64,000 nt of DNA from an uncultured Candidatus Saccharibacteria bacterium (lineage in GTDB: Bacteria > Patescibacteriota > Minisyncoccia > Phycocordibacterales > JAACPR01): positions 135,379 through 199,378 of the forward strand of contig CAZVRT010000001.1 of NCBI GenBank assembly GCA_964630375.1. The letters run 5' to 3'. Position numbers and translations under genes: made by a program. The notes below the pieces were generated by a model. That model worked only from the letters and a program-made list of their open reading frames with translations, ran no database searches and had not been told where the DNA came from. Shown piece after piece: positions 3,623 to 43,100 of the stretch (positions within the stretch are counted from its first letter, which is position 1; every line of letters begins with the position of its first letter).

Positions 3623-4183
3623 TTAAGAAAGATTTTTTAGTGCTTGTTTTACAATTTCTTCGGTTGATAGGGAGTTGTCGAGTTTTTGTACGGCGGCGCG
3701 GGCGTCGTTTAAGCTGTAACCAAGAGAGGTTAGTGCCTCGATAGCGTCGCTGGCGCCACTTTGCGTTCCGTCACCGCCGCCCGCGCCTTCCACTTTATCT
3801 TTCAATCCCACTAAAATTTTCTCGGCACTCTTTTTACCAATTCCTGATATTTTTGCCAAATGATCAGCGTTGCCACTTCTTATCCCTTCAAGAATTGTTG
3901 AGACTGGAGCCGTGTTTAAAATCCCCAAAGCAGACTTTGGTCCGATTCCAGAAATTGTTAACAAAAGCTCAAAGAAATCCAGTTCGCTTTTATCCAAAAA
4001 ACCATATAAATCTGAAGCTGTTTCTCTGATTGCGTGGTGTGTATAAAGAGAGACATTTTGCCCAGTTCTTATATTTAAAAGGCTAGAATTAGCGATTCTT
4101 ACCAAATACCCGACTCCTCCGACAAGCAAAATAGCTTCACCGTCTCCAATTTCATCAATCTCACCAATCAATTTTCTAATCAT
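3623..4183 (-). CDS. ruvA: Holliday junction DNA helicase RuvA
   Basis: MIRKLIGEI...LYGF...ELFELLLTISGIGPKSALGIL...KISGIGKKSAEKI gives the OB fold, two HhH motifs and domain III. Start taken at the internal ATG (rc of cat 4181-4183) rather than the upstream ORF extension. Confidence 0.85.
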   Translation of the reverse strand: MIRKLIGEIDEIGDGEAILLVGGVGYLVRIANSSLLNIRTGQNVSLYTHHAIRETASDLYGFLDKSELDFFELLLTISGIGPKSALGILNTAPVSTILEGIRSGNADHLAKISGIGKKSAEKILVGLKDKVEGAGGGDGTQSGASDAIEALTSLGYSLNDARAAVQKLDNSLSTEEIVKQALKNLS

Positions 4184-7204: not shown

Positions 7205-7283
7205 GTAGTATTACCGACACAGGTTTTTTGTTGCCTGAAATAAAGCCGAAGATAAAGATGAAACAAAAAATAAATTAAATATG

Positions 7284-27256: not shown

Positions 27257-27731
27257 ATAATATCGTATTTGGAGATAAGTTTGTACTTGATACCAGCTTT
27301 AATTTTTGTCGCAATTCTTGGGGCAGAAAAGGGACTCCTTCGCCAAATTCTATGTTCTCTTGAGTCAGAAACACTTTTTGGACCAAACCCTTTTCAATGA
27401 ATGTTTTATAAATCTCAGCCCCACCGATAATCGCGACTTCTTTTGTGTCTTCTTTTTCAAGTCTGGCAATTAAATCTTCCGGAGACTCTGATGTTGTTTC
27501 AACTCCGTCGATTTTTAAATCTTGTCGGCTTAAAATAATGTTTCTTCTGTTTTTTAGAGGTTTACCGAAAGTTTCAAAAGTTTTTCTACCCATTATCACT
27601 GTGCCGGCTTCTTTTGTTTTTTCAATGAAAAAATTTTTATCTTCTTTGCTAGTCCAGCTCATCGAATTTTCAGAATCATTTTTTGCAATGAATCCATCTT
27701 TTGTTTCTGCTGCGATTGCGAATACTTGCAT
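27234..27731 (-). CDS. folA: Dihydrofolate reductase
   Basis: MQVFAIAAETKDGFIAKN...TVIMGRKTFETFGKPLKNRRNIILSR matches the DHFR signature. ATG lies 5 nt after the thyA stop. Confidence 0.75.
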   Translation of the reverse strand: MQVFAIAAETKDGFIAKNDSENSMSWTSKEDKNFFIEKTKEAGTVIMGRKTFETFGKPLKNRRNIILSRQDLKIDGVETTSESPEDLIARLEKEDTKEVAIIGGAEIYKTFIEKGLVQKVFLTQENIEFGEGVPFLPQELRQKLKLVSSTNLSPNTILFEYVYSD

Positions 27732-27735
27732 GTTT

Positions 27736-28572
27736 TTATAAAGCAATTTTTAAACCTTTAATTGATCGCATTGGTTTATATTGAGATTCAATTTGAGAAA
27801 CTATTTCTTCAAGTAAAGTTTCATCTTTTTGTTCTGAGCGTTCAAAAGAATTTTCGGGCAAAGTTAATTTGATTGCTTTATGGTCATTTGTTCGAGAAAT
27901 AATTTCTTTTGCGGCATTGTAGTGATTCTCATAAATGTGTGCGTTTGAAATTGAGTGAGAGTAAGTACCAACTTTTACACCAAGTCTTTGCGCAAGAACA
28001 TATTGAAGAAAACAAAATCCTGCGATATCAAAAGGTGCGCCAAGAATCATGTCGTTTGAACGAACAATGTTGTGCATATGAAGTTTTCCATCAATGATGT
28101 TTATGGTGAAAGTGTATGGACAGGGAACATTGGCTTTTTTCTTTAATGAAAGACCGTCTTGTGCTGGATCCCAAGCGATAACAACTCCGTGCCGTGAGCT
28201 CGGTTCTTTTTCAAGAAGTTCAACAAGAAGTTTTATTTGGTCTCGTCCGAAGTGTTTTCGCCATCGGTATCCGTATGCAACAGTTACAACATCGTTTGGA
28301 TTTGTGAAAGCATCCCAGATTTTTGTGTGGTTGCGGAGAAAGTCGGCAGGTTTTCTTGCTCCAGACAAAAACCAGATTTGCTCTACGAATGGTCCGCGAA
28401 CAGGAATTTTTCTTAAAGTTAAAAGAGGGAAACCATCTTCTTCGGGGTTGATTTTAAAATGCATTCCTGGGACGGCGGCTGTTTCTAATTTTGTTCTTTC
28501 TGAAAATTCTCGATAACCTTTTTCAAGTATCTCTTTAAGCATTTCTTGGTAGATTTGGTCAAACTTTGTCAT
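27736..28572 (-). CDS. thyA: Thymidylate synthase ThyA
   Basis: LRKIPVRGPFVEQIWFLSGA...PCPYTFTINIIDGKLHMHNIVRSNDMILGAPFDIA has the catalytic Cys in the P-C-P-Y region. Confidence 0.9.
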   Translation of the reverse strand: MTKFDQIYQEMLKEILEKGYREFSERTKLETAAVPGMHFKINPEEDGFPLLTLRKIPVRGPFVEQIWFLSGARKPADFLRNHTKIWDAFTNPNDVVTVAYGYRWRKHFGRDQIKLLVELLEKEPSSRHGVVIAWDPAQDGLSLKKKANVPCPYTFTINIIDGKLHMHNIVRSNDMILGAPFDIAGFCFLQYVLAQRLGVKVGTYSHSISNAHIYENHYNAAKEIISRTNDHKAIKLTLPENSFERSEQKDETLLEEIVSQIESQYKPMRSIKGLKIAL

Positions 28573-28606
28573 GTCAGTATTTACATTATAATATTTAAAG
28601 TATAAT

Positions 28607-29140
28607 ATGCATTATAGACATTCCTTAACTTTTATGGACAAAAAAGAAATTAAATACCCATATCTTCCTGAGGGGAGAGAAATCAAATATGTGTCAGCTG
28701 ACAATCTTTTTATGAAAGAGGCGCGCGCTTTTGCTCGTGAGCACTCACTGGATGATGCAATGCCAAACTCTAGTGTGATGGTGAAAGATGGTAATGTCAT
28801 CGCCCGGGCCGCAAACGGTAGCGATTATCACAAAACTTATGCGTGCGAGAGAGTAAAGCAAGGAATTCCAACTGGGCAAGGTTATGAGCTTTGTGAAGGT
28901 TGTCACCCTAAAAATCACTCTGAACAATCTGTGATCAGAGAAGCACAAGAAAAAGAATTTGATGTCTCTGGTGCGGATATTTATCTGTGGGGGCATTGGT
29001 GGTGTTGTGAACCTTGCTGGAACGCAATGATTGAAAACGGAATCAAAGATGTTTATTTGTTGGAAGGAAGTGAAAAACTTTTTGACAGAGGTCATCCTGA
29101 AAATATCATTGGACGTCAGTTTGAATCGACAGAGGGCTAG
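28607..29140 (+). CDS. comEB: dCMP deaminase (cytidine/deoxycytidylate deaminase zinc-binding family)
   Basis: HSEQSVI (H[AS]E) and CEPC (PCxxC) zinc motifs. The protein ends ENIIGRQFESTEG*. Confidence 0.8.
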   Translation: MHYRHSLTFMDKKEIKYPYLPEGREIKYVSADNLFMKEARAFAREHSLDDAMPNSSVMVKDGNVIARAANGSDYHKTYACERVKQGIPTGQGYELCEGCHPKNHSEQSVIREAQEKEFDVSGADIYLWGHWWCCEPCWNAMIENGIKDVYLLEGSEKLFDRGHPENIIGRQFESTEG

Positions 29141-29153
29141 TTCCTCTTTTTTA
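29098..29153 (+). repeat. Direct repeat, left copy (3' end of comEB plus its terminator)
   Basis: tgaaaatatcattggacgtcagtttgaa-t-cgacagagg-[hairpin]-ttttt. About 47 of 56 positions are identical to 33846..33899. Confidence 0.85.
29131..29153 (+). terminator. Terminator of comEB
   Basis: agagg-gctagtt-cctct hairpin followed by tttttt. Confidence 0.6.
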
Positions 29154-29215
29154 TTTTTAAATTTTTTAGCTTTGGTATAAACTAATATTTAATTTATTAA
29201 ATTAAATATACTTCC

Positions 29216-30544
29216 GTGAAAGATACTGAGGAATTGAAAAATCAAATCAAAAATAAAAAAGTATTGGTAGTTTCAGGTTGTAATTTTTCTTTTCCACTAA
29301 ATTCTGGACCAACTTTGAGATCTATGTTTAACAAGTTTGAAAAAGATAACTTGGCACAAATGTATTTTGCCGGAGATAATATGCCGGATTTTGAATTTTG
29401 CAGTAATTATTTTAAGGTGACTTGGGTTGATATTCTAACTTCGTTAGTGCAAGGGTATTCTGATTGTGGTTCTGTTTACGCCAATACGGATGATTTTGAT
29501 TCGAATGGAACTGTAGAATCACGAAGTATTCTATCATTCTTAATACAAAGGTTTTTATATTCAATTATTCCAATATTTCAAAAGAGTCCTCGTCTGAGAG
29601 ATTTTATCTGGAGATTTAATTCTTGGAAAAGTCCAAAAATGTTAAAGTGGCTAGATGAGTATAAGCCAGATTTGATTTTCTTCAGTCCTGCTGATAGGGG
29701 GTCTTCTCATCAGATTGCTAGATTTATTTCAAATTACACCAGAGCCCCGCTTGTTGTTTGGGTTACTGATGACTATGTCTTATTTCCAAAGCGTATAAAC
29801 TTGATTGATAAAATACAAAAAATAAGATTGAGGAGAATTTTTAGAAAAACTATTTCAATGTCATCTGTTTGTTTTGCAATTGGCGATCGAATGGCCAAAG
29901 ATTACGAAAAGTTTTTTGGAAAAAGATTTATGACAATTATGAACTCGGTCAAAATACAAGATTATGTTGAATATTCGGGCGGACAGAATCTGAACTTTTC
30001 TTATTTTGGTAGTTTGTATCTTGATAGATGGAAAATTTTAATAAAATTAGCAGAGGCAGCGCCTCCTGGGAGTATAAGTGTATATACTGATCTTTCAAAA
30101 CTTCCAAAAAATATTGTTGAAGATATTGTTTTTGAATTTGAAAAGGCTGATATAAAAATTAAGGAATTTGTTAAAGGCGAAGATTTGCGAAAAGCTATGT
30201 TGGATAGCGATATACTTATTCAAGCAGAAAGTGACGATATTGTAACAAAAAGTCTGACGCGGCTTTCGGTGGCTACTAAAATTCCAGAATATTTAATTTC
30301 AGGCAGGGCTATTCTGGGCATTGGTCCACCAGAAGTTGCTTCTATGAAATTATTATCAGAAAACAATATAGGGTTAGTTATTTCTGGTGATAATATTTCT
30401 ATTCAAAATAAAAATCTAAAAAGAATAGTAGACGACCCTGATTATAGAAAAGAGCTTGGTAAGCGCGGGTATGATTATGCAGTTGCAAATTTTGATAATG
30501 ATTTGATTTCGGCAAGGTTTAAGGATATTATCGAAAACATATAA
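29216..30544 (+). CDS. Glycosyltransferase (GT-B fold, GT4-like)
   Basis: 442-aa ORF with GTG start. C-terminal ...SVATKIPEYLISGRAILGIGPPEV resembles the GT4 nucleotide-sugar binding motif. Its position upstream of fnlABC-like genes suggests a FucNAc transferase. Confidence 0.55.
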   Translation: MKDTEELKNQIKNKKVLVVSGCNFSFPLNSGPTLRSMFNKFEKDNLAQMYFAGDNMPDFEFCSNYFKVTWVDILTSLVQGYSDCGSVYANTDDFDSNGTVESRSILSFLIQRFLYSIIPIFQKSPRLRDFIWRFNSWKSPKMLKWLDEYKPDLIFFSPADRGSSHQIARFISNYTRAPLVVWVTDDYVLFPKRINLIDKIQKIRLRRIFRKTISMSSVCFAIGDRMAKDYEKFFGKRFMTIMNSVKIQDYVEYSGGQNLNFSYFGSLYLDRWKILIKLAEAAPPGSISVYTDLSKLPKNIVEDIVFEFEKADIKIKEFVKGEDLRKAMLDSDILIQAESDDIVTKSLTRLSVATKIPEYLISGRAILGIGPPEVASMKLLSENNIGLVISGDNISIQNKNLKRIVDDPDYRKELGKRGYDYAVANFDNDLISARFKDIIENI

Positions 30545-30549
30545 ATAAT

Positions 30550-31575
30550 ATGAAAGATAAAATATTACTAATAACAGGGGGAACTGGTTCTTTTGGAAAC
30601 GCTGCAGTTGAGAAATTTTTAGATACTAATCATTTTAAAGAAATTCGCATATTTTCGAGAGATGAGAAAAAACAAGATGATATGCGTAATTATTTCAGAA
30701 ATCCTAAATTAAAATTTTATATTGGAGATGTGCGTGATCCCCAAAGTTTGGATATTGCGATGAAAGGAGTAGATTATGTTTTTCATGCTGCCGCATTAAA
30801 GCAAGTTCCGTCTTTGGAATTTTTTCCGCTCGAAGCTGCTAAAACACATGTGTTTGGATCACAAAATGTAATTTCTTCCGCGATTTCACACAAGGTTAAA
30901 AAGGTTATATTAATGAGTACAGATAAAGCTGTTTATCCAATAAACGCAATGGGGATCTCGAAAGCTTTAATGGAAAAAGTTGCTGTTGCTGCTTCTAGAA
31001 CCTTGACCGATGATGAAACTGTAATATCTGTGGTGCGTTATGGAAACATTATGGCTTCTAGAGGTTCTGTAATTCCATTATTTTTAAAACAAATAAAATC
31101 GGGCAAAGCACTAACAATTACCAACCCCAACATGACTCGTTTTTTAATGTCCATTCATGATTCTGTGGAACTGGTATTATTTGCTTTTGAAAACGGTAAG
31201 CAAGGAGACATATTTGTAAACAAAGCTCCATCTGGTACGGTCGGTGATTTGGCTGAAGCATTAAAACAGATATGTAATGCTAATAATCCAATACAAGTTA
31301 TTGGGTTAAGGCATGGTGAAAAAACACATGAAACTCTATGTTCTAAAGAAGAAATGGTTGTGGCTCAAGATATGGGTAATTTTTATCGCATACCAGCTGA
31401 TTGCCGAGATTTAAACTACACACTTCAAAATTTACAAAATGATAATTTGGTACAAGAAGGTTATACGTCAGATAACGCTGAACAAAAAAATGTAGAAGAT
31501 ATTAAAAACATATTATTAAAATTGCCTTATATTCGCAGAGAGGTTTTTGGAGAAGATGCCAAACATGACATCTAA
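30550..31575 (+). CDS. UDP-GlcNAc 4,6-dehydratase/5-epimerase (CapD/Cap5E/FnlA family)
   Basis: KILLITGGTGSFGNA (SDR Rossmann), MSTDKAVYP (catalytic YxxxK region shifted as in CapE), 341 aa as in Cap5E/FnlA. Confidence 0.85.
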   Translation: MKDKILLITGGTGSFGNAAVEKFLDTNHFKEIRIFSRDEKKQDDMRNYFRNPKLKFYIGDVRDPQSLDIAMKGVDYVFHAAALKQVPSLEFFPLEAAKTHVFGSQNVISSAISHKVKKVILMSTDKAVYPINAMGISKALMEKVAVAASRTLTDDETVISVVRYGNIMASRGSVIPLFLKQIKSGKALTITNPNMTRFLMSIHDSVELVLFAFENGKQGDIFVNKAPSGTVGDLAEALKQICNANNPIQVIGLRHGEKTHETLCSKEEMVVAQDMGNFYRIPADCRDLNYTLQNLQNDNLVQEGYTSDNAEQKNVEDIKNILLKLPYIRREVFGEDAKHDI

Positions 31576-32692
31576 ACATATCAAAATAGGAATTACGGGA
31601 CAATCTGGATTTATTGGAACACATTTACGTAATACTATGATGCGTAGTCCGGATAAATTTTTTCTTATTGATTTTCATAGAAATTATTTTTTAAACGATG
31701 TTGAGCTGGATAAATTTTGCGAACAATGTGATGTGATTGTGCACTGCGCATCGGTAATTAAAACTGACGATGATGATTTTTATCAAACCAATGTTTTGCT
31801 TGCGGAAAAGTTGGCAAACTCATTAATACGTGTTGGAGGGGATAAGCATTTGGTGATGACGTCTTCTTTACAAGAGGATAAAGATACTTCTTATGGTAAA
31901 TCCAAAAAACTTGCACGTGAATTATTGGCGCAACAATCAAGTCAAAGTAATTTTTCATTTACAGGTATGATAGTTCCCAATGTGTTCGGTCCTTTTATGT
32001 GCCCTTATCATAATTCAGTAATTGCTACTTTTTGCCAACAAATAGTTAAAAATGAAACTCCAAAAATTATAGTTGATAACACTTTGAGTCTTATCTACAT
32101 CGACGAATTGGTTAAAGAAATTATTGATAAAGTTTTAAACAAGGAAAACAATCCTTTGTATATTGTTCCTCATCAATACAAAATCAAGGTTTCTGATTTA
32201 TTAGATAAATTACAAAACTATAAAACATGTTATCAAGATATGAAATGTATTCCTGATATCAGTGATTCTTTTAGTCTAAATTTATTTAATACTTATCTAT
32301 GCTACTTGTTTTCAGAAAATTATTTTCCAGTTCAACTTGATGTTCATGAAGATGAAAGGGGAATTTTTTCAGAAATTGTAAAACTTAAATCAGGAGGTCA
32401 GGTTTCTTTTTCAACCACTCTGCCCGGAGTCATAAGAGGAAATCATTACCATACTAGGAAGGTTGAAAGATTCATTGTGGTAAAAGGAAAAGCTATGATA
32501 GCATTGCGCAAGATAGGTACTAGTGAAGTTTTAAAATTTAATGTTGATGGACAGAAACCTGCTTATGTTGATATTCCGATATGGCATACACACAACATAC
32601 AGAATACGGGTAATGATAGTTTGCATGTTGTTTTTTGGATAAATGAAATTTATAACCCTGATGATTCAGATACTTATTTTGAAAAAGTTTAA
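31547..32692 (+). CDS. Cap5F/FnlB-like NAD-dependent reductase with C-terminal cupin domain
   Basis: IGITGQSGFIG Rossmann N-domain and a C-terminal cupin-like region (GNHYHTRKVERFIVVKGKA), the two-domain architecture of CapF/WbjC. The start could be at Met7 (31565). Confidence 0.65.
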   Translation: MEKMPNMTSKHIKIGITGQSGFIGTHLRNTMMRSPDKFFLIDFHRNYFLNDVELDKFCEQCDVIVHCASVIKTDDDDFYQTNVLLAEKLANSLIRVGGDKHLVMTSSLQEDKDTSYGKSKKLARELLAQQSSQSNFSFTGMIVPNVFGPFMCPYHNSVIATFCQQIVKNETPKIIVDNTLSLIYIDELVKEIIDKVLNKENNPLYIVPHQYKIKVSDLLDKLQNYKTCYQDMKCIPDISDSFSLNLFNTYLCYLFSENYFPVQLDVHEDERGIFSEIVKLKSGGQVSFSTTLPGVIRGNHYHTRKVERFIVVKGKAMIALRKIGTSEVLKFNVDGQKPAYVDIPIWHTHNIQNTGNDSLHVVFWINEIYNPDDSDTYFEKV

Positions 32693-32713
32693 CAGTTATT
32701 AAGTTATTAAATT

Positions 32714-33838
32714 ATGAAATTAAAAGTAATCACAGTGATTGGTACTAGGCCTGAAATTATACGTTTATCTAGGGTAATGCATGCTTTGGATTTTTCTGAA
32801 TCAATAGAGCATGTCGTTGTTCATACTGGTCAAAATTATGATTATGAATTAAATCAGATTTTTTTTGATGAATTAGAGTTGCGTAAACCCAATTATTTTC
32901 TTGATGCTGCTGGAGAAACTACTGCCGATACAATAGGTCAGATTTTTACAAAACTGGATAAAATTCTTGATGTTGAAAAACCAGATGCGTTTTTAGTATT
33001 GGGGGACACAAATAGTTGTTTGAGTACTATTATTGCAAAGAAAAAACATATACCAGTTTTTCACATGGAAGCAGGTAATCGTTGTTTTGATCAGAGAGTC
33101 CCGGAAGAGACTAATCGTAAAATCGTTGATCATATTTCAGACATAAATTTAACTTATAGCAACATTGCAAGAGAGTATTTGATTAATGAGGGATTCCCTG
33201 CGAAGCAGATTATTAAAACCGGCTCACCAATGTTTGAAGTTATTAACTATTATTTGCCTGGTATTTTGTCTTCAAATATTTTGGAGAAACTGAAAATTGA
33301 GAAAGGGAAGTTTTTTGTAGTTTCTTTTCATAGACAAGAAAATGTAGATGATGAGCAAAACCTTTCTTCATTTTTGGAAATACTAAATCTTGTGTCTGAA
33401 AAATATAATTATCCAATTATTGTCAGTACTCATCCTCGGACGCGAGCAAAAATAGAAAAAAGTAATATAAAAATAGATTCCAATATTCATTTTTTGAAGC
33501 CCCTAGGATTTTTTGATTATCAAGCCTTACAAATTAATTCTTTTGCCGTGTTGTCTGACAGTGGAACTATTTCGGAAGAATCATCAATATTAAATTTTAG
33601 AGCGCTTAATCTTCGTGAATCTCATGAAAGACCAGAGGGAATGGAAGAAGCGGCGGCGATGATGGTTGGGTTAAATGCCGACAGGGTTATGCAAGGGCTT
33701 TCTCAGTTGCAGTATCAAAAAACAGATTCTGAAAGAAATTTTAGATTAGTGTCGGATTATTCTGTACCAAATGTATCAGACAAAGTTGTGAGAATAATTA
33801 TTAGTTACGTTGATTACATAAAAAGATTATATAATTAA
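32714..33838 (+). CDS. UDP-N-acetylglucosamine 2-epimerase (non-hydrolysing; Cap5G/FnlC/WecB family)
   Basis: MKLKVITVIGTRPEIIRLS...HTGQNYDYELNQIFF...GDTNS...HMEAGNR are canonical WecB motifs. Confidence 0.85.
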   Translation: MKLKVITVIGTRPEIIRLSRVMHALDFSESIEHVVVHTGQNYDYELNQIFFDELELRKPNYFLDAAGETTADTIGQIFTKLDKILDVEKPDAFLVLGDTNSCLSTIIAKKKHIPVFHMEAGNRCFDQRVPEETNRKIVDHISDINLTYSNIAREYLINEGFPAKQIIKTGSPMFEVINYYLPGILSSNILEKLKIEKGKFFVVSFHRQENVDDEQNLSSFLEILNLVSEKYNYPIIVSTHPRTRAKIEKSNIKIDSNIHFLKPLGFFDYQALQINSFAVLSDSGTISEESSILNFRALNLRESHERPEGMEEAAAMMVGLNADRVMQGLSQLQYQKTDSERNFRLVSDYSVPNVSDKVVRIIISYVDYIKRLYN

Positions 33839-33845
33839 AGCTGGT

Positions 33846-33899
33846 TGAAAATATCATTGGACGTCAGTTTGAAGCGACAGAGGATTAATCCTCTTTTTA
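33846..33899 (+). repeat. Direct repeat, right copy (orphan copy of comEB 3' end plus terminator)
   Basis: It encodes ENIIGRQFEATED* in frame but has no upstream deaminase body. The hairpin is agagg-attaat-cctct followed by ttttt. Confidence 0.85.
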
Positions 33900-33962
33900 T
33901 TTAAATAAAAAAGCAGTCATCCCTTAAGACGACCGCGAAAGAGCTTCAATTTGTTTCTGGTA

Positions 33963-34652
33963 TCACAGCGGTATAGAAGGATCCATTTTGAGAAACCAAT
34001 CCGGAACTTCCGACCTCTTTGTGGCTTCTTCATAATAAATCTTGTACCCAGTTTCTTGGCACTCTGTTTCCAGTAAACCAAACTTTCCAAACAGATCGAA
34101 GAGATGGCGGAACCTTTCCTGAGCTTCTGCAATCAGTTGATGTTGGTCTGCTCTGTGGGTCTGTAACCACAGACATCTTTCGGCGGCGGTGACCAAAATA
34201 CTGAATCCGACTCTCTTAATCTCGTCAAATGAATTGCACAACTTGATGTCTGCACCCATTTCCCAGAAAAGATTGTCAGAATCTTTTTCAAAGATCTTTA
34301 GCAATTTTTTTTCTAGAAAAGTGAAAATTAGTATGACAATGCTGACCACCGTAAAACTCAAGAGTAGTGCGATATCAAGACTTTCTTTGGGAGTCCTACC
34401 AATGATTAAAAAGAAGGCTGACCAGAACACCAATAAGAATGCCATTACGAGCAAAGTATATAGCATATTCAAAGTGTTTTTTTCGATTTGAACTAAATCA
34501 ACCTTCTTTATGTCTGACCAACTTGCGACAAGATAGTCACGAGTCTTGCGATTCATTAACATTTCTGCGATTTTCATTTTGTCTTTCAATGCTGATTGGT
34601 TTATTTCAAAAGCGGAGAGTTTCGGTCTCACTATAAAATGGTTTTCGGCCAT
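33963..34652 (-). CDS. Hypothetical membrane protein, compositionally GC-richer than the core
   Basis: 229 aa with two central TM helices. Its codon usage and GC are clearly higher than flanking genes. Confidence 0.4.
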   Translation of the reverse strand: MAENHFIVRPKLSAFEINQSALKDKMKIAEMLMNRKTRDYLVASWSDIKKVDLVQIEKNTLNMLYTLLVMAFLLVFWSAFFLIIGRTPKESLDIALLLSFTVVSIVILIFTFLEKKLLKIFEKDSDNLFWEMGADIKLCNSFDEIKRVGFSILVTAAERCLWLQTHRADQHQLIAEAQERFRHLFDLFGKFGLLETECQETGYKIYYEEATKRSEVPDWFLKMDPSIPL

Positions 34653-34745
34653 TTACAGTTTTTTCGCTTGCTTGTGATTGTCAGCTTCAATCTTCGTTGC
34701 AAAATTAACAATAATTTTAGCGGACGTCAATTTTTGGGAAATGAA

Positions 34746-34780
34746 TAAGCCGCGGGCGAAGCCCGCGGCTTATTTGATTT
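34746..34780 (+). terminator. Orphan GC-rich hairpin plus T-run with no obvious upstream plus-strand gene
   Basis: aagccgcgggcgaagcccgcggctt followed by atttgatttt. Confidence 0.4.
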
Positions 34781-35071
34781 TAATTGGCACAAAAATCCAA
34801 TTTCTCACGCCAAAAGTTATGATTTTCCTCGGGTGTGAATTTTCAGATACAAGACAATGATTTACTTGCAAATCTGAAGCGGTGTCTTGTTTAAACCTCC
34901 TCAGATTTTCTGGAGTTGCTTCCAGAAAGAACAAGTATTCCGGATAGTACAGTTCTGGTTGCTTCATCTATTAGCTATAATAGCATTTTTTGATAAAATA
35001 TCTTTAATAAGTAAAACGCTATGATTTAACCTCTGCAAAAACTAATATTTATTAAATTAACTATAATTACT

Positions 35072-36244
35072 ATGAAAGATATTGAAATTGCAGAATTAAT
35101 AAAGAAGGAAAATCAAAGACAAGAGAGTGTTATAAATCTTATCGCTTCAGAAAACTATGTTTCAGATGATGTTTTGGCGGCACTTGGTTCAAAATTGAAC
35201 AACAAATACGCAGAAGGTTATCCAAATGCGCGATATTACGGTGGAAATGAAATTGTTGATCAAGTTGAGTCTTTGACACAAAAGCGCGCGCTTGAAGCTT
35301 TTGGTTTAAATGAAAATGAATGGGCGGTAAATGTCCAAGCGCTTTCAGGTTCTCCGGCAAACTTGGCAGTTTATTTTGCGCTTGTAGAAAAAGGAGGAAA
35401 GATAATGGGAATGCGACTTGATCACGGAGGACATCTTACTCATGGTCACAAAGTTTCTGCGACAGGAAGTTTTTATGAATCAATTCAATTCGGAGTTGAT
35501 GAACAAACTGAACTTTTAAATTTTGAAGAAATAGAAAAAATTGCACAGCAAGAAAAACCAAAAATTATTGTTGCTGGTTTTACCGCATATCCGCGAATAA
35601 TTGATTGGCAAAAATTTCGAGAGATTGCTGATAAGGTCGGAGCGTATTTGATGGTGGACATGTCTCATATCGCAGGGCTTGTTGCTGGAGGAGTTTATCC
35701 TTCGCCGTTTCCGTATGCTGATATTGTCACAACAACAACTCACAAAACTTTGCGTGGTCCGAGAAGTGCGCTGATTTTTTCACGAAAAGACGATAGAAAA
35801 TTAAATGAAAAAATAAACAAAGCAGTTTTTCCTGGGCTTCAAGGTGGTCCACACATCAATCAAATTGCCGGAGTTGCAGTTGCGTTGAAAGAAGTAAACT
35901 CAGAAGAATTTAAAAAATACGCTGAGCAAATTGTGAAAAATGCAAAAGCGTTGTCAGACGAATTGCAAAACCTTGGTTGGCGAGTCGTTTCTGGTGGAAC
36001 TGATTCTCACTTGGTTTTGGTTGATACTTGGATGAATGGAAAGGGAATTTCAGGAAAAGAGGCTAGTGATAAATTGGAGGCGGAAGGAATTATCGTGAAC
36101 AAAAACACGATTCCAAACGACCAAAGAAGCCCTGCTGATCCGTCAGGAATTCGTCTTGGTACCGCAGCTGAAACTACTCGCGGAAAAAAAGAAAAAGATT
36201 TTGAGGAGATTGCTAGAAAAATTGACGAGGTTTTGCGAAAATAA
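35072..36244 (+). CDS. glyA: Serine hydroxymethyltransferase
   Basis: LIASENYVS...YAEGYPNARYYGG...LDHGGHLTHG...TTTTHKTLRGPR (PLP Lys in THKT). Confidence 0.9.
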   Translation: MKDIEIAELIKKENQRQESVINLIASENYVSDDVLAALGSKLNNKYAEGYPNARYYGGNEIVDQVESLTQKRALEAFGLNENEWAVNVQALSGSPANLAVYFALVEKGGKIMGMRLDHGGHLTHGHKVSATGSFYESIQFGVDEQTELLNFEEIEKIAQQEKPKIIVAGFTAYPRIIDWQKFREIADKVGAYLMVDMSHIAGLVAGGVYPSPFPYADIVTTTTHKTLRGPRSALIFSRKDDRKLNEKINKAVFPGLQGGPHINQIAGVAVALKEVNSEEFKKYAEQIVKNAKALSDELQNLGWRVVSGGTDSHLVLVDTWMNGKGISGKEASDKLEAEGIIVNKNTIPNDQRSPADPSGIRLGTAAETTRGKKEKDFEEIARKIDEVLRK

Positions 36245-36260
36245 ATTTTAGAAAATAAAA

Positions 36261-36683
36261 ATGCAAATCAAATTCAAAAAATTAAATGAAAATGCAATAG
36301 CTCCAAATTATGCATATCAGTTTGATGCAGGAATGGATTTATTTTGTTCTGAAAATATTTCAATCGAGCCAAATCAGAGAGTACAAGTTTCAACAGGAAT
36401 TGCAATGGAAATTCCGGGAGGTTTTGTCGGATTGATTTGGGACAAAAGTGGATTGTCGCATAAAAGTGGGTTAAAAACTTTGGGAGGTGTTATTGATTCT
36501 CAATATCGTGGGGAAATAAAAATCGGAATAATAAATTTAAGTGATGAAATATTTCATTTTGAAGTTGGGCAGAAAGTTGCACAGATGTTGATTCAAAAAG
36601 TTGAGCAAGTTGATTTGGTCGAGTCGATGGAACTTTCTGAAACTAATCGTGGTGAAGGGGGTTTTGGAAGCACTGGAAAATAA
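36261..36683 (+). CDS. dut: dUTP diphosphatase
   Basis: AGMDL, GLIWDKSGL, GVIDSQYRGEI and a C-terminal GFGSTG give all five dUTPase motifs. Confidence 0.85.
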   Translation: MQIKFKKLNENAIAPNYAYQFDAGMDLFCSENISIEPNQRVQVSTGIAMEIPGGFVGLIWDKSGLSHKSGLKTLGGVIDSQYRGEIKIGIINLSDEIFHFEVGQKVAQMLIQKVEQVDLVESMELSETNRGEGGFGSTGK

Positions 36684-36695
36684 ATCTGAAATAAA

Positions 36696-37385
36696 ATGCA
36701 AACACAAAATAAAAAAGGAAAATTTATTGTGATAGATGGGACAGATGGTTCTGGAAAGGGAACACAAACAGAATTGCTGGTTAATGCACTCAAAGCAAAA
36801 AACTTGGATGTGATAACTTTAGATTTTCCTCAATACGGAAAATCTTCTTGTTATTTTGTAGAAAAATATTTAAGAGGAGAATACGGAACTGCGGATGAAG
36901 TTGGTGCAAAAAGAGCTTCTTTGTTTTATGCGTTAGATCGTTTTGATATTTCAAAACAAATAAAAGATTGGTTGGATGAAGGGAAAATAATTGTAAGCAA
37001 TCGATATGTTTCAGCTAGTATGGGTCATCAAGCTGGAAAAATAAAAGATTTTGAAGAAAGAGAAAAGTTTTTAGATTGGTTGGATGAATTAGAATTTGAA
37101 ATTTGCGAAATTCCCAGACCTGATGAAATTATTTTCTTGTATATGCCGCCAGAAATTGGGCAAAAATTAGTTGATCAGAAATCTGCTCGCGATTATACAA
37201 ATGGTAAAAAGAGAGATATTCATGAAGCGGATTTAGATCATTTGAAAAATGCATCGGAAGCTTATAAATACGTTGCAAATAAATTTAATTGGAAAACTAT
37301 AAATTGTACTGAAGGCGATGAAATTTTGAGTAGAGAACAAATTTTAAATCAGATTTTAAAGGTTTTGGAAGATGTGCTAGACTAG
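36696..37385 (+). CDS. tmk: Thymidylate kinase
   Basis: FIVIDGTDGSGKGTQ P-loop and DRY-like SNRYVSAS region. Confidence 0.85.
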   Translation: MQTQNKKGKFIVIDGTDGSGKGTQTELLVNALKAKNLDVITLDFPQYGKSSCYFVEKYLRGEYGTADEVGAKRASLFYALDRFDISKQIKDWLDEGKIIVSNRYVSASMGHQAGKIKDFEEREKFLDWLDELEFEICEIPRPDEIIFLYMPPEIGQKLVDQKSARDYTNGKKRDIHEADLDHLKNASEAYKYVANKFNWKTINCTEGDEILSREQILNQILKVLEDVLD

Positions 37386-40119: not shown

Positions 40120-43100
40120 ATGACAAACGAGGCAGATGAAACTAACAAAAGTCAAATAGCTCAAAGAGAAGAAAAAATTCTAGAATTTTGGAATCAAAAT
40201 GAAATCTTTAAAAAATCTTTAGAAAAAGAAGCTAAAAATGGCGATTTTGTGTTTTTTGATGGACCTCCTTTTGCAACAGGAATGCCACATTATGGACACC
40301 TTCTTCCTGGGACTGTGAAAGATATTATTCCTCGTTACAAAACCATGAACGGATACAGAGTGACTCGTCGGTGGGGTTGGGATACTCACGGTCTTCCAAT
40401 CGAAAATCTAATTCAAAAAGAAAGAGGTCTTCAAACAAAACAAGATATAGAAGATTTTGGAATTAAAAATTTTAATGAAGCTGCTAGAGCCAGTGTTTTT
40501 CGGTATTTGGATGAGTGGAAAAAAATTATTCCTCGAACTGGTCGTTGGGTAGATTTTGAAGACAACTACATCACAATGGATTCTAAATATATGGAATCTG
40601 AATGGTGGATGTGGAAGACACTTCATCAAAACGGTTTGGCTTATGAAGGTTTTAAATCAATGCATATTTCTCCTTTGCTTGAAACCGCACTTTCAAACTT
40701 TGAAGTAAATCAAAATTACAAAGACATTACAGATTTATCGGCAACTGTAAAATTTGAGTTAGTGGACGAAAAGGGAACTTTTGTTTTGGCTTGGACAACA
40801 ACTCCTTGGACGCTTCCGGGGAATGTCGCATTGGCGATAAATAAAAATCTTTCTTATATAAAAGTAAAATCTGAAAATGAATTTTATATCGTAGCAAAAG
40901 ATTTAGTTGAAAAAGTTTTTGAAGGAAAAGAATATGAAATTATTTCAGAAATTTCTGCCGAAGATTTGCTTGGAAAAAAATACACTCCACCTTTCAATTA
41001 TTTTATAAACGATCCTAATTTAGAAAATCGTGAAAATGGCTGGAAAATTTATCACGGAGATTTTGTGACAACAGAAGATGGAACGGGAATTGTGCATATT
41101 GCTCCAGCTTTTGGTGAAGATGACTTGAATTTAGGTAAAGAAAATAATTTGCCGTTTGTTCAACATGTAAAAATTGATGGAACAATAAAACCAGAAGTAA
41201 AAGAATTTGCAGGACTTCAAGCAAAACCAAAAGAAGATCCGATGCAAACTGATATTGAGTTTGTAAAATATTTGGCTCACAACGGATTTTTGTTTAGCAA
41301 GAAAAAATACACTCACTCATATCCGCATTGTTGGAGAACTGATGCGCCACTTTTGAATTATGCGATGTCTTCTTGGTACATCAAGGTAACTGATTTGAAA
41401 GACAAAATTGTTAAGGAAAACGATAAAATAAATTGGTCGCCTGACTTTGTTGGGAAATCTCGTTTTGGAAATTGGTTGAAAGACGCTAAAGATTGGTCTG
41501 TTTCTCGTGCGCGATTTTGGGGAACACCGATTCCGGTTTGGAAATCAGAAGATGAAAGTGAGATTGCAATAATTGGTTCAGTTGATGAGTTAAAAGAAAA
41601 AACAAAAAGTTCAAATACTTTTGTCGTGTTGCGACATGGAGAAGCTGATCATAATTTAGAAAATAAAGCTTCTGATAGTGATAATCCGCCAAGTAACCTA
41701 ACTCAAAGAGGAAAAGATGACATTGCAAGAACTGCAGAAAATTTTACAGGAGAAACTTTTGATTTAATTTATTCTTCACCTTTAATCAGAACAAAAGCCA
41801 CTGCGGAAATCATTGCAGAAAAAATTGGTTATCCGAAAGAAAATATTATCTTTGATGAAAGAATTGCAGAAGTGAAAACTGGTTTTGATGGACGTCCAAT
41901 TTCAGAATATCGAAATTATTTTTCTTCAAATTTAGAAAAATTCGAAAAAGCTGCGCCAGGTGGAGAAACTCTTTTTGAATTAAAAAAACGAGTTGGAAGT
42001 TTTTTGAAAGATATTGATTCTCAAAATGTTGGAAAGAAAATTTTGGTTGTAACTCACGAATATGTAACTTGGATGATGGTCTCTGCAAATGAAGGTTTGA
42101 ATGTGAAAGATACAGTTGCAATAAAAAATGACACGGAAGATTTTATCGAAACAGGGAAGACTATCGAGTTCGTTCCAAATCGGTTGCCTGTAAATGATAA
42201 TTTTGAAGTCGATTTGCATCGACCATATATTGATGATGTCGTTTTCATGCAAAACGAAAAAATAATGAAAAGAATTCCAGATGTTTTTGATACTTGGGTT
42301 GATTCTGGATCAGTTCCTTTTGCTTCGAATTTTTATCCAAAAAATAAAGAAAGATTTAATCCAGATTCAGGTTTGTTTAAAAAATCAATAAATTATCCAG
42401 CTGACTTTATTTCTGAAAGTTTGGATCAAACACGAGGTTGGTTTTATTCTTTGATTGTTTTGAATACTGCTTTGTTTGGGCATTCTCCTTATAAAAATGT
42501 TGCGGTGACTGGGCTTGTATTGGCGGAAGATGGAAGAAAAATGTCTAAAAGTTTAAAAAATTATCCGGAAATTGATTCTGTTTTAAATAAATTTGGTGCT
42601 GATGCTATGAGATATTATTTAATGTCATCTCAAGCAGTGAAAGCTGAGTCGCTTTTATTTTCAGAAAAAGGTGTTGATGAAGTTTCAAAGAAATTGATTG
42701 GTCGTTTAAACAATGTGCTTTCTTTCTATGAAATGTACAAACATGTTTTGGGAAATGAAAAAGCAAATGAAAGTAAAAATGTTTTAGACAAATGGATTTT
42801 ATCTCGTCTTTCAGAATTGAAAGAACAAGTTACAAATTCTTTAGATAATTACGAAATCGACAGAGCAACTCGACCTTTCATGGATTTTGTTGATGATTTA
42901 TCTACTTGGTATATTCGTCGTTCTCGTGACAGATTTAAAAATGAATCAAGTGAAGATGATCAAGAAAATAATGATGCAAAATTTGCAGCTGCGACAACAA
43001 AATTTGTTTTGAAAAATTTATCAAAACTAATGGCTCCTTTTACGCCTTTTATTGCTGAAGAAATTTATCAAACGCTAAAAGATGAGGGTGATGTGGAAAG

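What the first reader, a model, noticed from the sequence alone, without database searches (positions are those of the whole stretch)
29178..29236. The glycosyltransferase has captured a copy of the glyA promoter and first codons
The ~59 nt upstream of and into the GT gene (aaactaatatttaatttattaaattaaatatacttccGTGaaagatactgaggaattg) align at ~80% identity with the region upstream of and into glyA (35037-35090: aaaactaatatttattaaattaactataattactATGaaagatattgaaattg). The shared stretch includes the first codons (M-K-D-T-E vs M-K-D-I-E), so the GT appears to have a GTG start created by the fusion.

Together with the comEB 3' duplication, this suggests the whole ancestral comEB-terminator-PglyA-glyA5' junction (~140 nt) was duplicated during insertion. 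The incoming cassette would then have been placed under a copy of the housekeeping glyA promoter.

The left junction also contains a 25-bp AT-only palindrome (29185-29209, atatttaattta-t-taaattaaatat). It may be a protein-binding site, but it is not compelling on its own in AT-rich DNA.
Basis: seen in the sequence. Interest (0 to 1): 0.6.

Follow-up and report, generated by a model that had tools for sequence, protein, structure and literature searches.

The report
Sugar-gene cassette borrowed glyA's upstream region
In an uncultured ultra-small (Paceibacterota) bacterium, a four-gene surface-sugar cassette sits between two housekeeping genes, flanked by diverged copies of the junction it split. 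It therefore begins with a copy of the glyA upstream region and start codon and ends with a copy of the neighbouring gene's terminator, a tidy natural example of a known process (promoter capture).

Summary
The core 29179-29236 aligns to glyA's upstream region and first codons (35039-35090) with 46 matches, 5 mismatches and 3 indels. Local alignment score is 35 against 14±2.5 for shuffles, and the next best place in the window scores 21. The adjacent 29098-29161 repeats at 33846-33909 (comEB 3' end plus terminator).

Relatives (L004, L005) lack the cassette and conserve the glyA copy. GT homologues lack the 14-residue N-terminal extension. The window GT has no start codon at the native position. 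So the GT copy is the derived one, and it probably supplies the start codon.

In this clade the comEB-glyA junction is about 1.2 kb and holds two minus-strand ORFs. The right-hand copy keeps them; the left copy lacks them.

The cassette is GT plus FnlA/B/C-like genes, a block that is operon-internal in another genome. It carries no recombinase, no terminal inverted repeats and no short target duplication. The most likely origin is a duplicative, recombinase-independent insertion.

Promoter activity is inferred only. The 25-nt AT palindrome is perfect and statistically unusual.

Separately, relics of the comEB 3' end flank other cargo in four further Paceibacterota loci. This is a new member of a known kind, of moderate interest.

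The parts
28634..29140 (+). dCMP deaminase (comEB-type) gene. The mechanical ORF starts at 28607, but orthologues start at the Met encoded at 28634.
   Evidence: Pfam dCMP_cyt_deam_1. Orthologue N-termini MEKKEIKYPYLP. ATG confirmed at 28634.
29098..29161 (+). Left copy of the comEB 3' end (last 14 codons), terminator and T-rich tail.
   Evidence: Repeat D1. 56 matches, 4 mismatches and 5 gap nt to 33846-33906; score 46 against shuffles 8.4 +/- 1.7.
29131..29157 (+). Intrinsic-terminator-like hairpin (AGAGGG-CTAGT-TCCTCT) followed by a T run, downstream of comEB.
   Evidence: Terminator scan. Fold -6 kcal/mol.
29165..29236 (+). Copy of the glyA upstream region plus first 5-7 codons. The confident core is 29179-29236; 29165-29178 is weaker.
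   Evidence: Closest to the window's own glyA upstream (score 32) rather than to L004/L005 (22/21) or others (<=16).
29185..29209 (.). Perfect 12+1+12 AT-only palindrome, specific to the GT copy. Relative to the glyA copy it was made by a 5-nt tandem duplication (ATTTA) and a C-to-A change. It overlaps the first 3 nt of the -10-like hexamer.
   Evidence: It is the only AT-only palindrome with arms of at least 12 nt in the window; 0.08 expected in locally shuffled sequence.
29207..29212 (+). -10-like hexamer TATACT, 3 nt upstream of the GTG. It aligns with TATAAT of the glyA copy.
   Evidence: Function inferred only.
29216..30544 (+). Glycosyltransferase (GT-B/GT4-like), 442 aa from GTG 29216. 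Alternative starts are TTG 29234 and TTG 29264. The N-terminal ~14 residues (MKDTEELKNQIKNK) are absent from most homologues.
   Evidence: An in-frame stop at 29198 means GTG 29216 is the first possible start (read).
30550..31575 (+). FnlA-like UDP-GlcNAc 4,6-dehydratase/5-epimerase.
   Evidence: Pfam Polysacc_synt_2 7.8e-99. TIGR04130 FnlA 478.8 bits, which is below the 730 cut-off.
31556..32692 (+). FnlB/WbjC-like reductase. ATG 31556 is preferred over TTG 31547.
   Evidence: Pfam Polysacc_synt_C, Epimerase. NF047837 246.8 bits, below the 500 cut-off. The Logan gene call is 378 aa.
32714..33838 (+). FnlC/WecB-type non-hydrolysing UDP-GlcNAc 2-epimerase, the last cassette gene.
   Evidence: Pfam Epimerase_2 2.8e-92. 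TIGR00236 234.5 bits, above the 210 cut-off.
33846..33909 (+). Orphan relic of the comEB 3' end (14 codons, own TAA at 33886-88) with a terminator hairpin at 33879-33894 and a T run. It begins 7 nt after the fnlC-like stop.
   Evidence: tblastn relic hit aa 165-176.
33963..34652 (-). ORF229, a membrane-like protein of unknown function. It belongs to the ancestral comEB-glyA spacer and has a homologue in L004 (37% identity).
34770..34967 (-). ORF65, a small ORF divergent from glyA. It is a positional homologue of L004 ORF64 and L005 ORF72.
35025..35090 (+). Resident glyA upstream region and first codons, the source-type copy. TATAAT lies at 35062-35067, 4 nt before the ATG at 35072.
35072..36244 (+). 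glyA (serine hydroxymethyltransferase).
   Evidence: Pfam SHMT 2.2e-166.

Best explanation
**What it is.** A promoterless block of four genes was inserted into the thymidylate/folate gene cluster of a Paceibacterota bacterium, at the comEB-glyA junction. The block is one glycosyltransferase plus FnlA/FnlB/FnlC-like enzymes for a UDP-L-FucNAc-type sugar. In another genome (L092) the same block lies inside a large polysaccharide gene cluster.

**How the insertion left its marks.**
- The insertion was duplicative. The cassette is now flanked by two diverged copies of the junction it split.
- On its 5' side lies comEB 3' end, terminator, about 50 nt of glyA upstream DNA and glyA codons 1 to about 7, fused in frame to the GT.
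- On its 3' side lies an orphan comEB 3' end plus terminator. This continues into the ancestral spacer (ORF229, ORF65), the resident glyA upstream region and intact glyA.

**Consequences.**
- Both housekeeping genes stayed intact.
- The cassette became a self-contained unit. It has a copy of the glyA upstream/initiation region in front, which supplies the start codon (ATG since mutated to GTG). It has a copy of the comEB terminator behind.

**Most likely mechanism.** A recombinase-independent event, either replicative template switching or microhomology-mediated insertion. The 1.1-kb spacer was lost from the left copy in the same event or later. About 7-10% substitution divergence followed.

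**Shown versus inferred.**
- Shown: the homology, the direction of copying, the absence of the cassette in relatives, the missing native start codon, and the absence of mobile-element hallmarks.
- Inferred: that the copied segment is an active promoter, which start codon is used, and the molecular mechanism of insertion.
For: **The repeats are real and specific**
- Both repeats are significant and found nowhere else in the window.
- They occur in the same order and orientation on both sides of the cassette.

**The cassette is an insertion**
- Relatives L004 and L005 (glyA 86% identical) have thyA-comEB-[minus-strand ORFs]-glyA-dut with no cassette.
- None of the 80 metagenomic comEB loci has GT or fnl genes next to comEB.
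- The flanking genes form a dTMP/folate cluster: dcd, folA, thyA, comEB, glyA, dut, tmk. The cassette is a functional outlier within it.

**The GT copy is the derived one**
- The glyA 5' end and upstream region are conserved in the orthologues L004/L005, and most other loci examined start glyA with MKD.
- GT homologues begin MK[IV]L[IV][IV]S; the window has AAA at that codon.

**The copy arose within this lineage**
- The left copy is closest to this genome's own glyA upstream: score 32, against 22/21 for L004/L005.
- It keeps a few ancestral states that the resident copy has lost. This indicates an origin after the split from L004/L005, followed by independent drift.

**The cassette needed outside signals**
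- In L092 the GT-fnlA-x-fnlB-fnlC block is internal to a long polysaccharide gene cluster. The GT there starts 30 nt after the preceding gene. That block would carry no promoter of its own.

**Regulatory features are retained**
- Terminator hairpins plus T runs are kept in both comEB-end copies, with different loops.
- -10-like hexamers are aligned in both promoter copies.
- -10-like hexamers 2-12 nt before start codons are common at heads of operons in this window. So about 50 nt could suffice as a promoter.

**No mobile-element hallmarks**
- No recombinase, transposase or terminal inverted repeats were found.

**Age**
- GC3 of the cassette (0.23-0.25) matches host genes, consistent with an old, ameliorated insertion.
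Against: - No transcription data exist.
- The sigma-70 scan finds no -35/-10 pair at either copy.
- The 5-nt insertion in the GT copy changes spacing upstream of the -10-like box.
- The -10-like hexamers lie only 3-4 nt from the start codons. From my own knowledge of E. coli, that is shorter than the usual distance to a transcription start.
- The comEB terminator is weak (-6 kcal/mol, z -0.46), so read-through from comEB could drive the cassette.
- The left copy lacks the 1.1-kb spacer, so at least one extra step (a deletion or an additional template switch) is needed.
- The GT-side junction cannot be placed exactly, because the nearest GT homologue is only 46% identical.
- TTG 29264 remains a possible start. 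If used, the glyA codons would be untranslated.
Confidence: 0.6

Rival explanations
1. **Imported junction (one-sided homology-anchored or Campbell-like recombination).** The glyA-upstream::GT fusion formed earlier in a closely related strain that lacked the 1.1-kb spacer, by simple insertion of the cassette into the 5' end of its glyA. DNA carrying comEB-terminator-PglyA-g::GT-fnlABC was then taken up. It recombined homologously within comEB and joined illegitimately 14 codons before the recipient's comEB stop. The relic at 33846-33909 would then be the recipient's own comEB end, and the left copy would be donor DNA.
For: - It explains without a deletion why the right side is colinear with L004 while the left copy lacks the spacer.
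- Direct comEB-glyA adjacency (43-190 nt) is common in Paceibacterota.
- The first 28 nt of the comEB repeat are identical and the differences begin only after them.
- comEB 3'-end relics flank different cargo in L024, L036, L049 and L089, and no cargo carries a recombinase. This fits recurrent comEB-anchored recombination.
- comEB is unusually divergent among close relatives (56-71% against 86-95% for glyA), which suggests frequent allele exchange.
Against: - It needs a donor whose glyA was disrupted.
- The left copy is closest to this genome's own glyA upstream. The donor would therefore have to be a very close relative that had also lost the spacer.
- Outside the hairpin loop the comEB repeat differs little, so the 28-nt identical run is only weakly unusual (about 5% at 10% divergence, my estimate).
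- No such donor allele was found in the genome or metagenome scans.
Confidence: 0.25
2. **Neutral scar, no promoter.** The duplication is real, but the glyA-derived segment is only a by-product of insertion. The cassette is transcribed by read-through from the comEB promoter across a weak terminator. At most the copied DNA supplies a start codon.
For: - The left terminator is weak (-6 kcal/mol, not better than shuffles).
- No consensus -35/-10 pair is detected.
- The 5-nt insertion and other changes in the GT copy could reflect decay.
- In L024 the cargo starts 19 nt after the comEB stop with no terminator, so co-transcription with comEB is used elsewhere.
Against: - The 14-nt ATTTATTAAATTAA core and the -10-like hexamer are retained with the key A2/T6 positions, while the flanks drifted.
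- The hairpin and T run are retained after comEB in the left copy.
- Short-leader -10-like boxes are typical of operon heads in this window.
Confidence: 0.2
3. **Chance, low complexity or a shared regulatory motif.** The resemblance reflects AT-rich composition or a common promoter or operator motif, and the common MKD start, rather than copying.
For: - MKD starts occur in 4 of 63 genes of the window, and in one GT homologue, P0025.
- Similarity beyond codon 7 is not significant.
Against: - Score 35 against shuffles 14 +/- 2.5 (maximum 25), and the next best in the window is 21.
- The 22-mer is unique to the two sites.
- The alignment is continuous from -51 to +21.
- It is physically joined to a second, independent repeat (the comEB end) in the same order.
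Confidence: 0.02
4. **Assembly chimera.** Two co-occurring strains were joined at the glyA 5' end.
For: This is a metagenome-assembled genome. The Logan assembly breaks at 34099-34127 inside ORF229, which hints at strain variation nearby.
Against: - A separately built Logan contig spans thyA through both junctions to ORF229 with 0 mismatches.
- The left copy differs from the right by indels and substitutions, so it is not a collapsed repeat.
- The fusion is in frame, and the GT lacks its own start codon.
Confidence: 0.03

Closest known systems
Promoter capture by duplication or deletion. Examples: rnk-citT in the Cit+ E. coli of the long-term evolution experiment, as cited in PMC3575422, and activation of a horizontally transferred gene by microhomology-mediated deletion or amplification (Li & Bock 2019, PMC6614815).
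   Same: A gene lacking its own promoter ends up behind a copy of a resident promoter, while the original promoter-gene pair stays intact. Junctions are formed without a dedicated recombinase.
   Different: This is a natural, old event (about 7-10% divergence between copies) in an uncultured CPR bacterium. The copy includes the start codon and first codons as an in-frame fusion. A terminator copy closes the unit. Expression is not demonstrated.
Genomic islands integrated into the 3' end of a conserved gene, with attL/attR direct repeats that restore the gene. This covers tRNA/tmRNA-targeting and protein-gene-targeting integrative elements (my own knowledge).
   Same: The cargo is flanked by direct repeats consisting of the target gene's 3' end. 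The gene stays intact and an orphan 3' end is left at the far side. The same gene end is used with different cargo in other genomes (L024, L036, L049, L089).
   Different: No integrase or recombinase is found in or next to any cargo. Breakpoints differ between loci: aa ~112-127 in three, and ~161-164 in two. The repeat in the window extends past the gene into the terminator and into the next gene's promoter.
Homology-facilitated illegitimate recombination during natural transformation. It is described for Acinetobacter and Streptococcus (my own knowledge) and mentioned in PMC6382021.
   Same: Foreign DNA is integrated with one homologous anchor and one illegitimate, microhomology-type end, with no element-encoded enzymes. 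It is plausible for Patescibacteria, where natural competence has been exploited for genetics (PMC10633639).
   Different: To my recollection, the classical cases delete recipient DNA rather than duplicate the anchor's end. No donor is identified, and competence of this organism is unknown.
Putative mobile or re-used promoters (Nijveen, Matus-Garcia & van Passel 2012, PMC3575422).
   Same: Highly similar promoter regions occur in front of unrelated genes in one genome.
   Different: Here the copy is not free-standing. It is part of a duplicated insertion junction together with coding sequence from both neighbours.
fnlABC / capEFG / wbjBCD UDP-L-FucNAc biosynthesis modules with an adjacent glycosyltransferase (my own knowledge of the pathway).
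   Same: The domain series and gene order match: 4,6-dehydratase/epimerase, reductase, 2-epimerase, preceded by a GT.
   Different: The FnlA and FnlB matches fall below NCBIfam equivalog cut-offs, so the sugar product is uncertain. The module is isolated from any larger polysaccharide cluster and sits in a nucleotide-metabolism operon.

Membership tests
Promoter capture by duplication/rearrangement | A copy of a resident gene's upstream region lies directly in front of an unrelated gene, and the resident gene keeps its own copy. | tested here: met
   29165-29236 vs 35025-35090. glyA is intact.
Promoter capture by duplication/rearrangement | The captured gene lacked a promoter of its own. | tested here: inconclusive
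   In L092 the homologous GT-fnl block is operon-internal, with the GT 30 nt after the preceding gene. The actual donor is unknown.
Promoter capture by duplication/rearrangement | Transcription of the captured gene starts at the copied promoter. | not testable with these tools
   No RNA data. Only -10-like hexamers are present, and the consensus scan is negative at both copies.
Integrase-mediated island at a gene 3' end (att repeats) | Direct repeats made of the target gene's 3' end flank the cargo. | tested here: met
   29098-29161 and 33846-33909.
Integrase-mediated island at a gene 3' end (att repeats) | A tyrosine or serine recombinase is encoded in or beside the island. | tested here: not met
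   Pfam and NCBIfam on all four cassette genes and ORF229/ORF65 give no recombinase. PADLOC adds no hit for GT, ORF229 or ORF65. Pfam on the cargo ORFs of L024, L036, L049 and L089 gives none either.
Integrase-mediated island at a gene 3' end (att repeats) | The same crossover site is used by independent insertions. | tested here: inconclusive
   The window and L024 breakpoints lie about 7 nt apart. L036, L049 and L089 break about 40-50 codons earlier.
Transposon / IS insertion | Short (2-15 bp) target-site duplication, terminal inverted repeats and a transposase. | tested here: not met
   The duplication is at least 64 nt. The inverted-repeat score at the cassette ends is 12 against shuffles 15 +/- 2.7. 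There is no transposase domain.
Intrinsic (Rho-independent) terminator | A G+C-containing hairpin followed by a T run, directly after a stop codon. | tested here: met
   29131-29147 and 33879-33894, both followed by T runs. Energies are -6 and -9.2 kcal/mol. Activity is not tested.
Sigma-70 type promoter | -35 and -10 hexamers with 16-18 nt spacing. | tested here: not met
   No hit at either copy in the scan. Only the -10-like TATAAT/TATACT are present. CPR promoter rules are unknown.
UDP-L-FucNAc pathway (FnlA/FnlB/FnlC) | FnlA equivalog. | tested here: inconclusive
   TIGR04130 is the best hit at 478.8 bits, but the cut-off is 730.
UDP-L-FucNAc pathway (FnlA/FnlB/FnlC) | C-4 reductase (FnlB/WbjC) equivalog. 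| tested here: inconclusive
   NF047837 scores 246.8 bits; the cut-off is 500.
UDP-L-FucNAc pathway (FnlA/FnlB/FnlC) | Non-hydrolysing UDP-GlcNAc 2-epimerase. | tested here: met
   TIGR00236 scores 234.5 bits, above the 210 cut-off.
GT4 (GT-B) glycosyltransferase | Pfam Glyco_transf_4 / Glycos_transf_1 domains above threshold. | tested here: inconclusive
   Glyco_transf_4 scores 20.4 bits against a 28.5 cut-off. There are 97 homologues, a few of which carry PF13439/PF13524/PF26337.

The most novel reading that the evidence does not exclude
The 3' end of the dCMP deaminase gene may be a recurrent, recombinase-less landing pad in Paceibacterota.
- Unrelated cargo has inserted there repeatedly: a sugar cassette here, PemK/MazF and RelE-like toxin genes, and an HExxH protein plus an uncharacterised 211-aa ORF elsewhere.
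- Each insertion comes with a direct repeat that restores the gene end.
- This could reflect an undescribed integration route in CPR bacteria. Candidates are competence-driven, comEB-anchored illegitimate recombination, or a trans-acting recombinase that recognises this gene end.
- In the window the process also copied the neighbouring promoter. The new perfect 25-nt palindrome would then be a newly evolved operator that uncouples the cassette from glyA regulation.
Probability: 0.15. Interest if true: 0.6.

Novelty: new member of a known kind. Interest (0 to 1): 0.4.

Why it matters
How horizontally acquired, promoterless genes become expressed is usually studied in laboratory evolution. Here the answer can be read from a natural genome of a candidate-phyla-radiation bacterium, a group with no promoter maps and few genetic tools.

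- One insertion appears to have supplied the cassette with a promoter region, a start codon and a terminator, all copied from its two housekeeping neighbours. Neither neighbour was damaged.
- The locus gives a concrete pair of about 50-nt sequences that should share core promoter function. That is a handle for defining Paceibacterota promoters.
- The cassette probably alters a cell-surface sugar, which matters for organisms thought to live attached to hosts.
- The recurrent comEB-end relics hint at a preferred insertion site that deserves a systematic survey.

Tried and rejected
- **Chance or low complexity.** Rejected by shuffles and a whole-window scan.
- **Organism-wide promoter consensus.** The motif and the palindrome half-site are not enriched elsewhere. 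The extra half-site hits at 7270 and 30289 are single 1-mismatch matches.
- **Longer fusion reaching glyA codons 8-17 with in-frame deletions.** Not significant: p about 0.04, equalled by an unrelated gene.
- **Known RNA element in the junctions.** Rfam gave only sub-threshold noise at 34727-34814.
- **Transposon or integrase.** No such domains and no terminal inverted repeats.
- **Closer relatives carrying the cassette or an intermediate allele.** The genome and metagenome scans found none. The best comEB relative is 68-69% identical and the best GT homologue 46%. Exact-protein look-ups found only the same sample.
- **Foreign origin of the left copy from a lineage with direct comEB-glyA adjacency.** No such spacer resembles it; scores are <=16-20 against 32 for the window's own copy.
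- **Compositional foreignness of the cassette.** GC3 is indistinguishable from host genes.
- **Function of ORF229/ORF65.** No Pfam, NCBIfam or PADLOC hit.
- **Literature on CPR promoters or leaderless mRNAs.** Nothing found. The Patescibacteria HGT survey (PMC12455944) does not mention promoters, direct repeats or integrases.
Full report
**Observation**

- A local alignment of 29160-29245 with 35020-35100 scores 35. Two thousand shuffles give 14.0 +/- 2.5 with a maximum of 25.
- When the GT-upstream segment is slid over the whole window on both strands, the only comparable scores are at the glyA upstream region. The next best place scores 21.
- The confident core is 29179-29236 against 35039-35090. 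It has 46 matches, 5 mismatches and three indels of 5, 1 and 2 nt, which is 90% identity without gaps and 78% with gaps.
- A weaker extension reaches 29165/35025.
- The shared 22-mer occurs only at these two places in the window.
- Immediately to the left, 29098-29161 repeats at 33846-33909. This is the last 14 codons of the dCMP deaminase gene, its terminator hairpin and the T run. It gives 56 matches, 4 mismatches and 5 gap nucleotides, with score 46 against 8.4 +/- 1.7.
- Similarity past about 29236 into the GT gene is not distinguishable from A-rich background.
- Separately built Logan contigs from sample SRR16797977 reproduce 27639-34127 and 34099-37032 without a mismatch.

**Context**

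The window comes from a Candidatus Paceibacterota (CPR) bacterium. The nearest genomes are MAGs JBAYWG010000001 (L005) and JAGOTN010000001 (L004), whose glyA is 86% identical by global alignment (87% and 86% in tblastn).

The region is a thymidylate/folate cluster. On the minus strand lie dcd, folA and thyA. On the plus strand lie comEB-type dCMP deaminase, glyA, dut and tmk.

Between the deaminase and glyA lie four plus-strand genes:
- a GT-B-like glycosyltransferase (29216-30544);
- an FnlA-like dehydratase/epimerase (30550-31575);
- an FnlB/WbjC-like reductase (31556-32692);
- a WecB/FnlC-type 2-epimerase (32714-33838).

After these come the orphan deaminase end, two minus-strand ORFs of unknown function (ORF229, ORF65), and then glyA.

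**Direction and ancestral state**

- L004 has deaminase, terminator, ORF199(-), ORF64(-) and glyA. L005 has deaminase, ORF72(-) and glyA. Neither has the cassette.
- The window's right-hand side, from the orphan deaminase end through ORF229, a conserved non-coding stretch, a G+C-rich hairpin and ORF65 to the glyA upstream region, is colinear with L004. The ancestral junction of this clade was therefore about 1.2 kb, not about 140 nt.
- The glyA start MKDIEIA and its upstream region are conserved in L004/L005. MKD[I/L/K/T] starts recur in most other Paceibacterota glyA genes examined.
- None of 97 GT homologues shares the window's MKDTEELKNQIKNK extension. Most begin MK[IV]L[IV][IV]S.
- At the position of their Met the window has AAA.
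- GTG 29216 is the first possible start after an in-frame stop at 29198. GTG 29216 and TTG 29234 both lie inside the glyA-derived stretch. TTG 29264, three codons after the homologues' Met, cannot be excluded.
- The GT copy is therefore derived from glyA, and it most likely supplies the start codon (ATG changed to GTG).
- The left copy is more similar to this genome's own glyA upstream (score 32) than to L004/L005 (22, 21) or to any direct deaminase-glyA spacer of other lineages (<=16-20).
- At a few positions it keeps the state seen in L004/L005 where the resident copy has changed.
- The two deaminase-end copies are likewise far closer to each other than to L004/L005.
- The copying therefore happened in this lineage after its split from L004/L005. 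Both copies have drifted since, by roughly 7-10% substitutions plus indels.

**The cassette**

- The closest GT homologues are only 44-46% identical. Named ones are from Flavobacterium psychrophilum.
- In L092 the homologous GT is followed by fnlA, a small ORF, fnlB and fnlC, inside a long polysaccharide gene cluster. The GT there starts 30 nt after the preceding gene. In L093 a GT-fnlA pair recurs.
- The block is thus a recurring module that, in L092, has no promoter of its own.
- In the window its limits are tight. It ends 7 nt after the fnlC-like stop and begins within a few codons of the GT's native start.
- Its GC3 (0.23-0.25) equals that of host genes.
- No recombinase, transposase, terminal inverted repeat or short target duplication is present.

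**Regulatory reading**

- Both deaminase-end copies keep a hairpin on the same AGAGG/CCTCT base, with different loops, followed by T runs. The cassette is therefore followed by a terminator-like copy, and the deaminase gene keeps its own.
- In front of the GT, the 14-nt ATTTATTAAATTAA core and a -10-like hexamer (TATACT, aligned with glyA's TATAAT) are retained.
- In this window about ten of some 27 operon-leading genes have a -10-like hexamer ending 2-12 nt before the start codon, and Shine-Dalgarno motifs are rare. Short or absent leaders may therefore be normal here, in which case about 50 nt of upstream DNA could be a complete promoter.
- This remains inference. The consensus scan finds no -35/-10 pair at either copy. 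The hexamers lie only 3-4 nt from the start codons. The left terminator is weak, so read-through from the deaminase gene is a live alternative.

**Palindrome**

- 29185-29209 is a perfect 12+1+12 AT-only palindrome.
- All other perfect palindromes with arms of at least 12 nt in the window are G+C-rich terminator hairpins. Locally shuffled sequence gives 0.08 such palindromes per window.
- Relative to the glyA copy it arose by a 5-nt tandem duplication (ATTTA) and a C-to-A change at the one remaining mismatched position.
- Either the symmetry was selected, for example as a new operator overlapping the -10-like box, or it was produced by quasi-palindrome template-switch correction, a mutational mechanism I know from the literature. 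I could not distinguish these.

**Mechanism**

The topology is junction, cassette, junction, with both housekeeping genes intact and no element-encoded enzyme.
- The best fit is a duplicative, recombinase-independent insertion: replicative template switching or a microhomology-type event. The 1.1-kb spacer would have been lost from the left copy in the same event or later.
- Using L004 as a proxy for the ancestral terminator tail, the left copy runs colinear through TTTTTTATTTT(T)AAATTTT and then joins the glyA upstream region at an ATTT(T)A-like microhomology. This is my inference.
- The main rival is that the fusion formed in a close relative lacking the spacer and was imported by recombination anchored in the deaminase gene. 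That would leave the recipient's own gene end as the relic.
- Laboratory work shows that horizontally transferred genes are readily activated by microhomology-mediated deletion or amplification that captures a resident promoter (PMC6614815). Promoter re-use is documented across prokaryotes (PMC3575422).

**A wider pattern**

- Among 83 loci with a deaminase homologue, five carry a second, partial copy of its 3' end downstream of the intact gene. These are the window/L001, L024, L036, L049 and L089.
- No such relic exists for thyA (67 loci) or dut (28 loci). glyA shows only a second glyA copy in tandem (L018, L060).
- The cargo between gene and relic differs:
  - L036 and L089 carry a PemK/MazF-like toxin.
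  - L049 carries a weak RelE/YoeB-like toxin plus a small partner.
  - L024 carries an HExxH protein and a 211-aa ORF whose C-terminus is the relic itself.
- The L024 breakpoint lies about 7 nt from the window's. The other three break 40-50 codons earlier.
- The deaminase is also the most divergent gene of the cluster among close relatives (56-71% against 86-95% for glyA).
- This looks like a permissive or preferred insertion site. Whether a specific mechanism underlies it is open.

**Verdict**

Two corrections apply. The ancestral junction was longer and the left copy is a composite. Promoter function and the start codon are inferred, not shown.

In kind, this is promoter capture accompanying insertion of a horizontally acquired cassette, which is a known process. 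The instance is new, is unusually complete (promoter region, start codon and terminator all borrowed), and lies in a phylum where regulatory signals are uncharted.

Noticed in passing
L024:8401-8436 and 9897-9932; L036:734-881 and 1438-1590; L049:488-624 and 1205-1341; L089:3029-3158 and 3682-3809: Other Paceibacterota loci carry a partial second copy of the dCMP deaminase 3' end downstream of the intact gene. Different cargo lies in between: PemK/MazF-like toxin, RelE/YoeB-like toxin plus partner, and an HExxH protein plus a 211-aa ORF that ends in the relic. Five of 83 loci show this, against none for thyA or dut ends.
   Followed up: partly
window 28634-29140; L004:5319-5828; L005:9121-9615: The dCMP deaminase is far more divergent among close relatives (56-71% identity) than its neighbours thyA (90-91%) and glyA (86-95%). 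This suggests allele replacement or relaxed constraint. The mechanical ORF start at 28607 is probably 9 codons too early.
   Followed up: partly
window 34653-34780: A non-coding stretch of about 130 nt between ORF229 and a 14-bp G+C-rich hairpin (34744-34774) is conserved with L004, and the hairpin alone also with L005. It contains a promoter-like TTGTCA-16-CAAAAT at 34678-34705 on the plus strand and could encode a small RNA. Rfam gives only sub-threshold noise.
   Followed up: partly
window 33963-34652 (-): ORF229 is a membrane-like protein with no family match. Its GC3 of 0.44 is an outlier against 0.20-0.27 for neighbouring genes. It is only 37% identical to its L004 counterpart, although the flanking genes are 86-90% identical.
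   Followed up: partly
window 40120-43596 (+): The class I aminoacyl-tRNA synthetase (IleS/ValS/LeuS type, 1158 aa) has a histidine phosphatase (His_Phos_1) domain at residues 502-666, inserted within the catalytic domain. This is an unusual domain insertion.
   Followed up: no
window 34099-34127: The Logan assembly of SRR16797977 breaks here, inside ORF229. The two contigs overlap by 29 nt, which may indicate strain-level variation next to the insertion.
   Followed up: no
window-wide gene starts, e.g. 8890, 15853, 22196, 35072, 48153: About ten of some 27 operon-leading genes have a -10-like hexamer ending 2-12 nt before the start codon, and Shine-Dalgarno-like motifs are rare. This suggests leaderless or very short-leader mRNAs in this organism.
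   Followed up: partly
L018:11738-14246; L048:11712-14218; L060:2301-4057: Some Paceibacterota carry a second glyA copy in tandem downstream of the deaminase gene; the second copy in L060 matches only glyA residues 2-129.
   Followed up: no
window 33895-33912 vs 29148-29170: After the terminator the two copies differ by what looks like a 7-nt inversion (TTTTTTA against TAAAAAA) and a 12-nt deletion in the relic relative to L004. The A run in the relic serves as the T run of the minus-strand terminator of ORF229 (33913-33936).
   Followed up: partly
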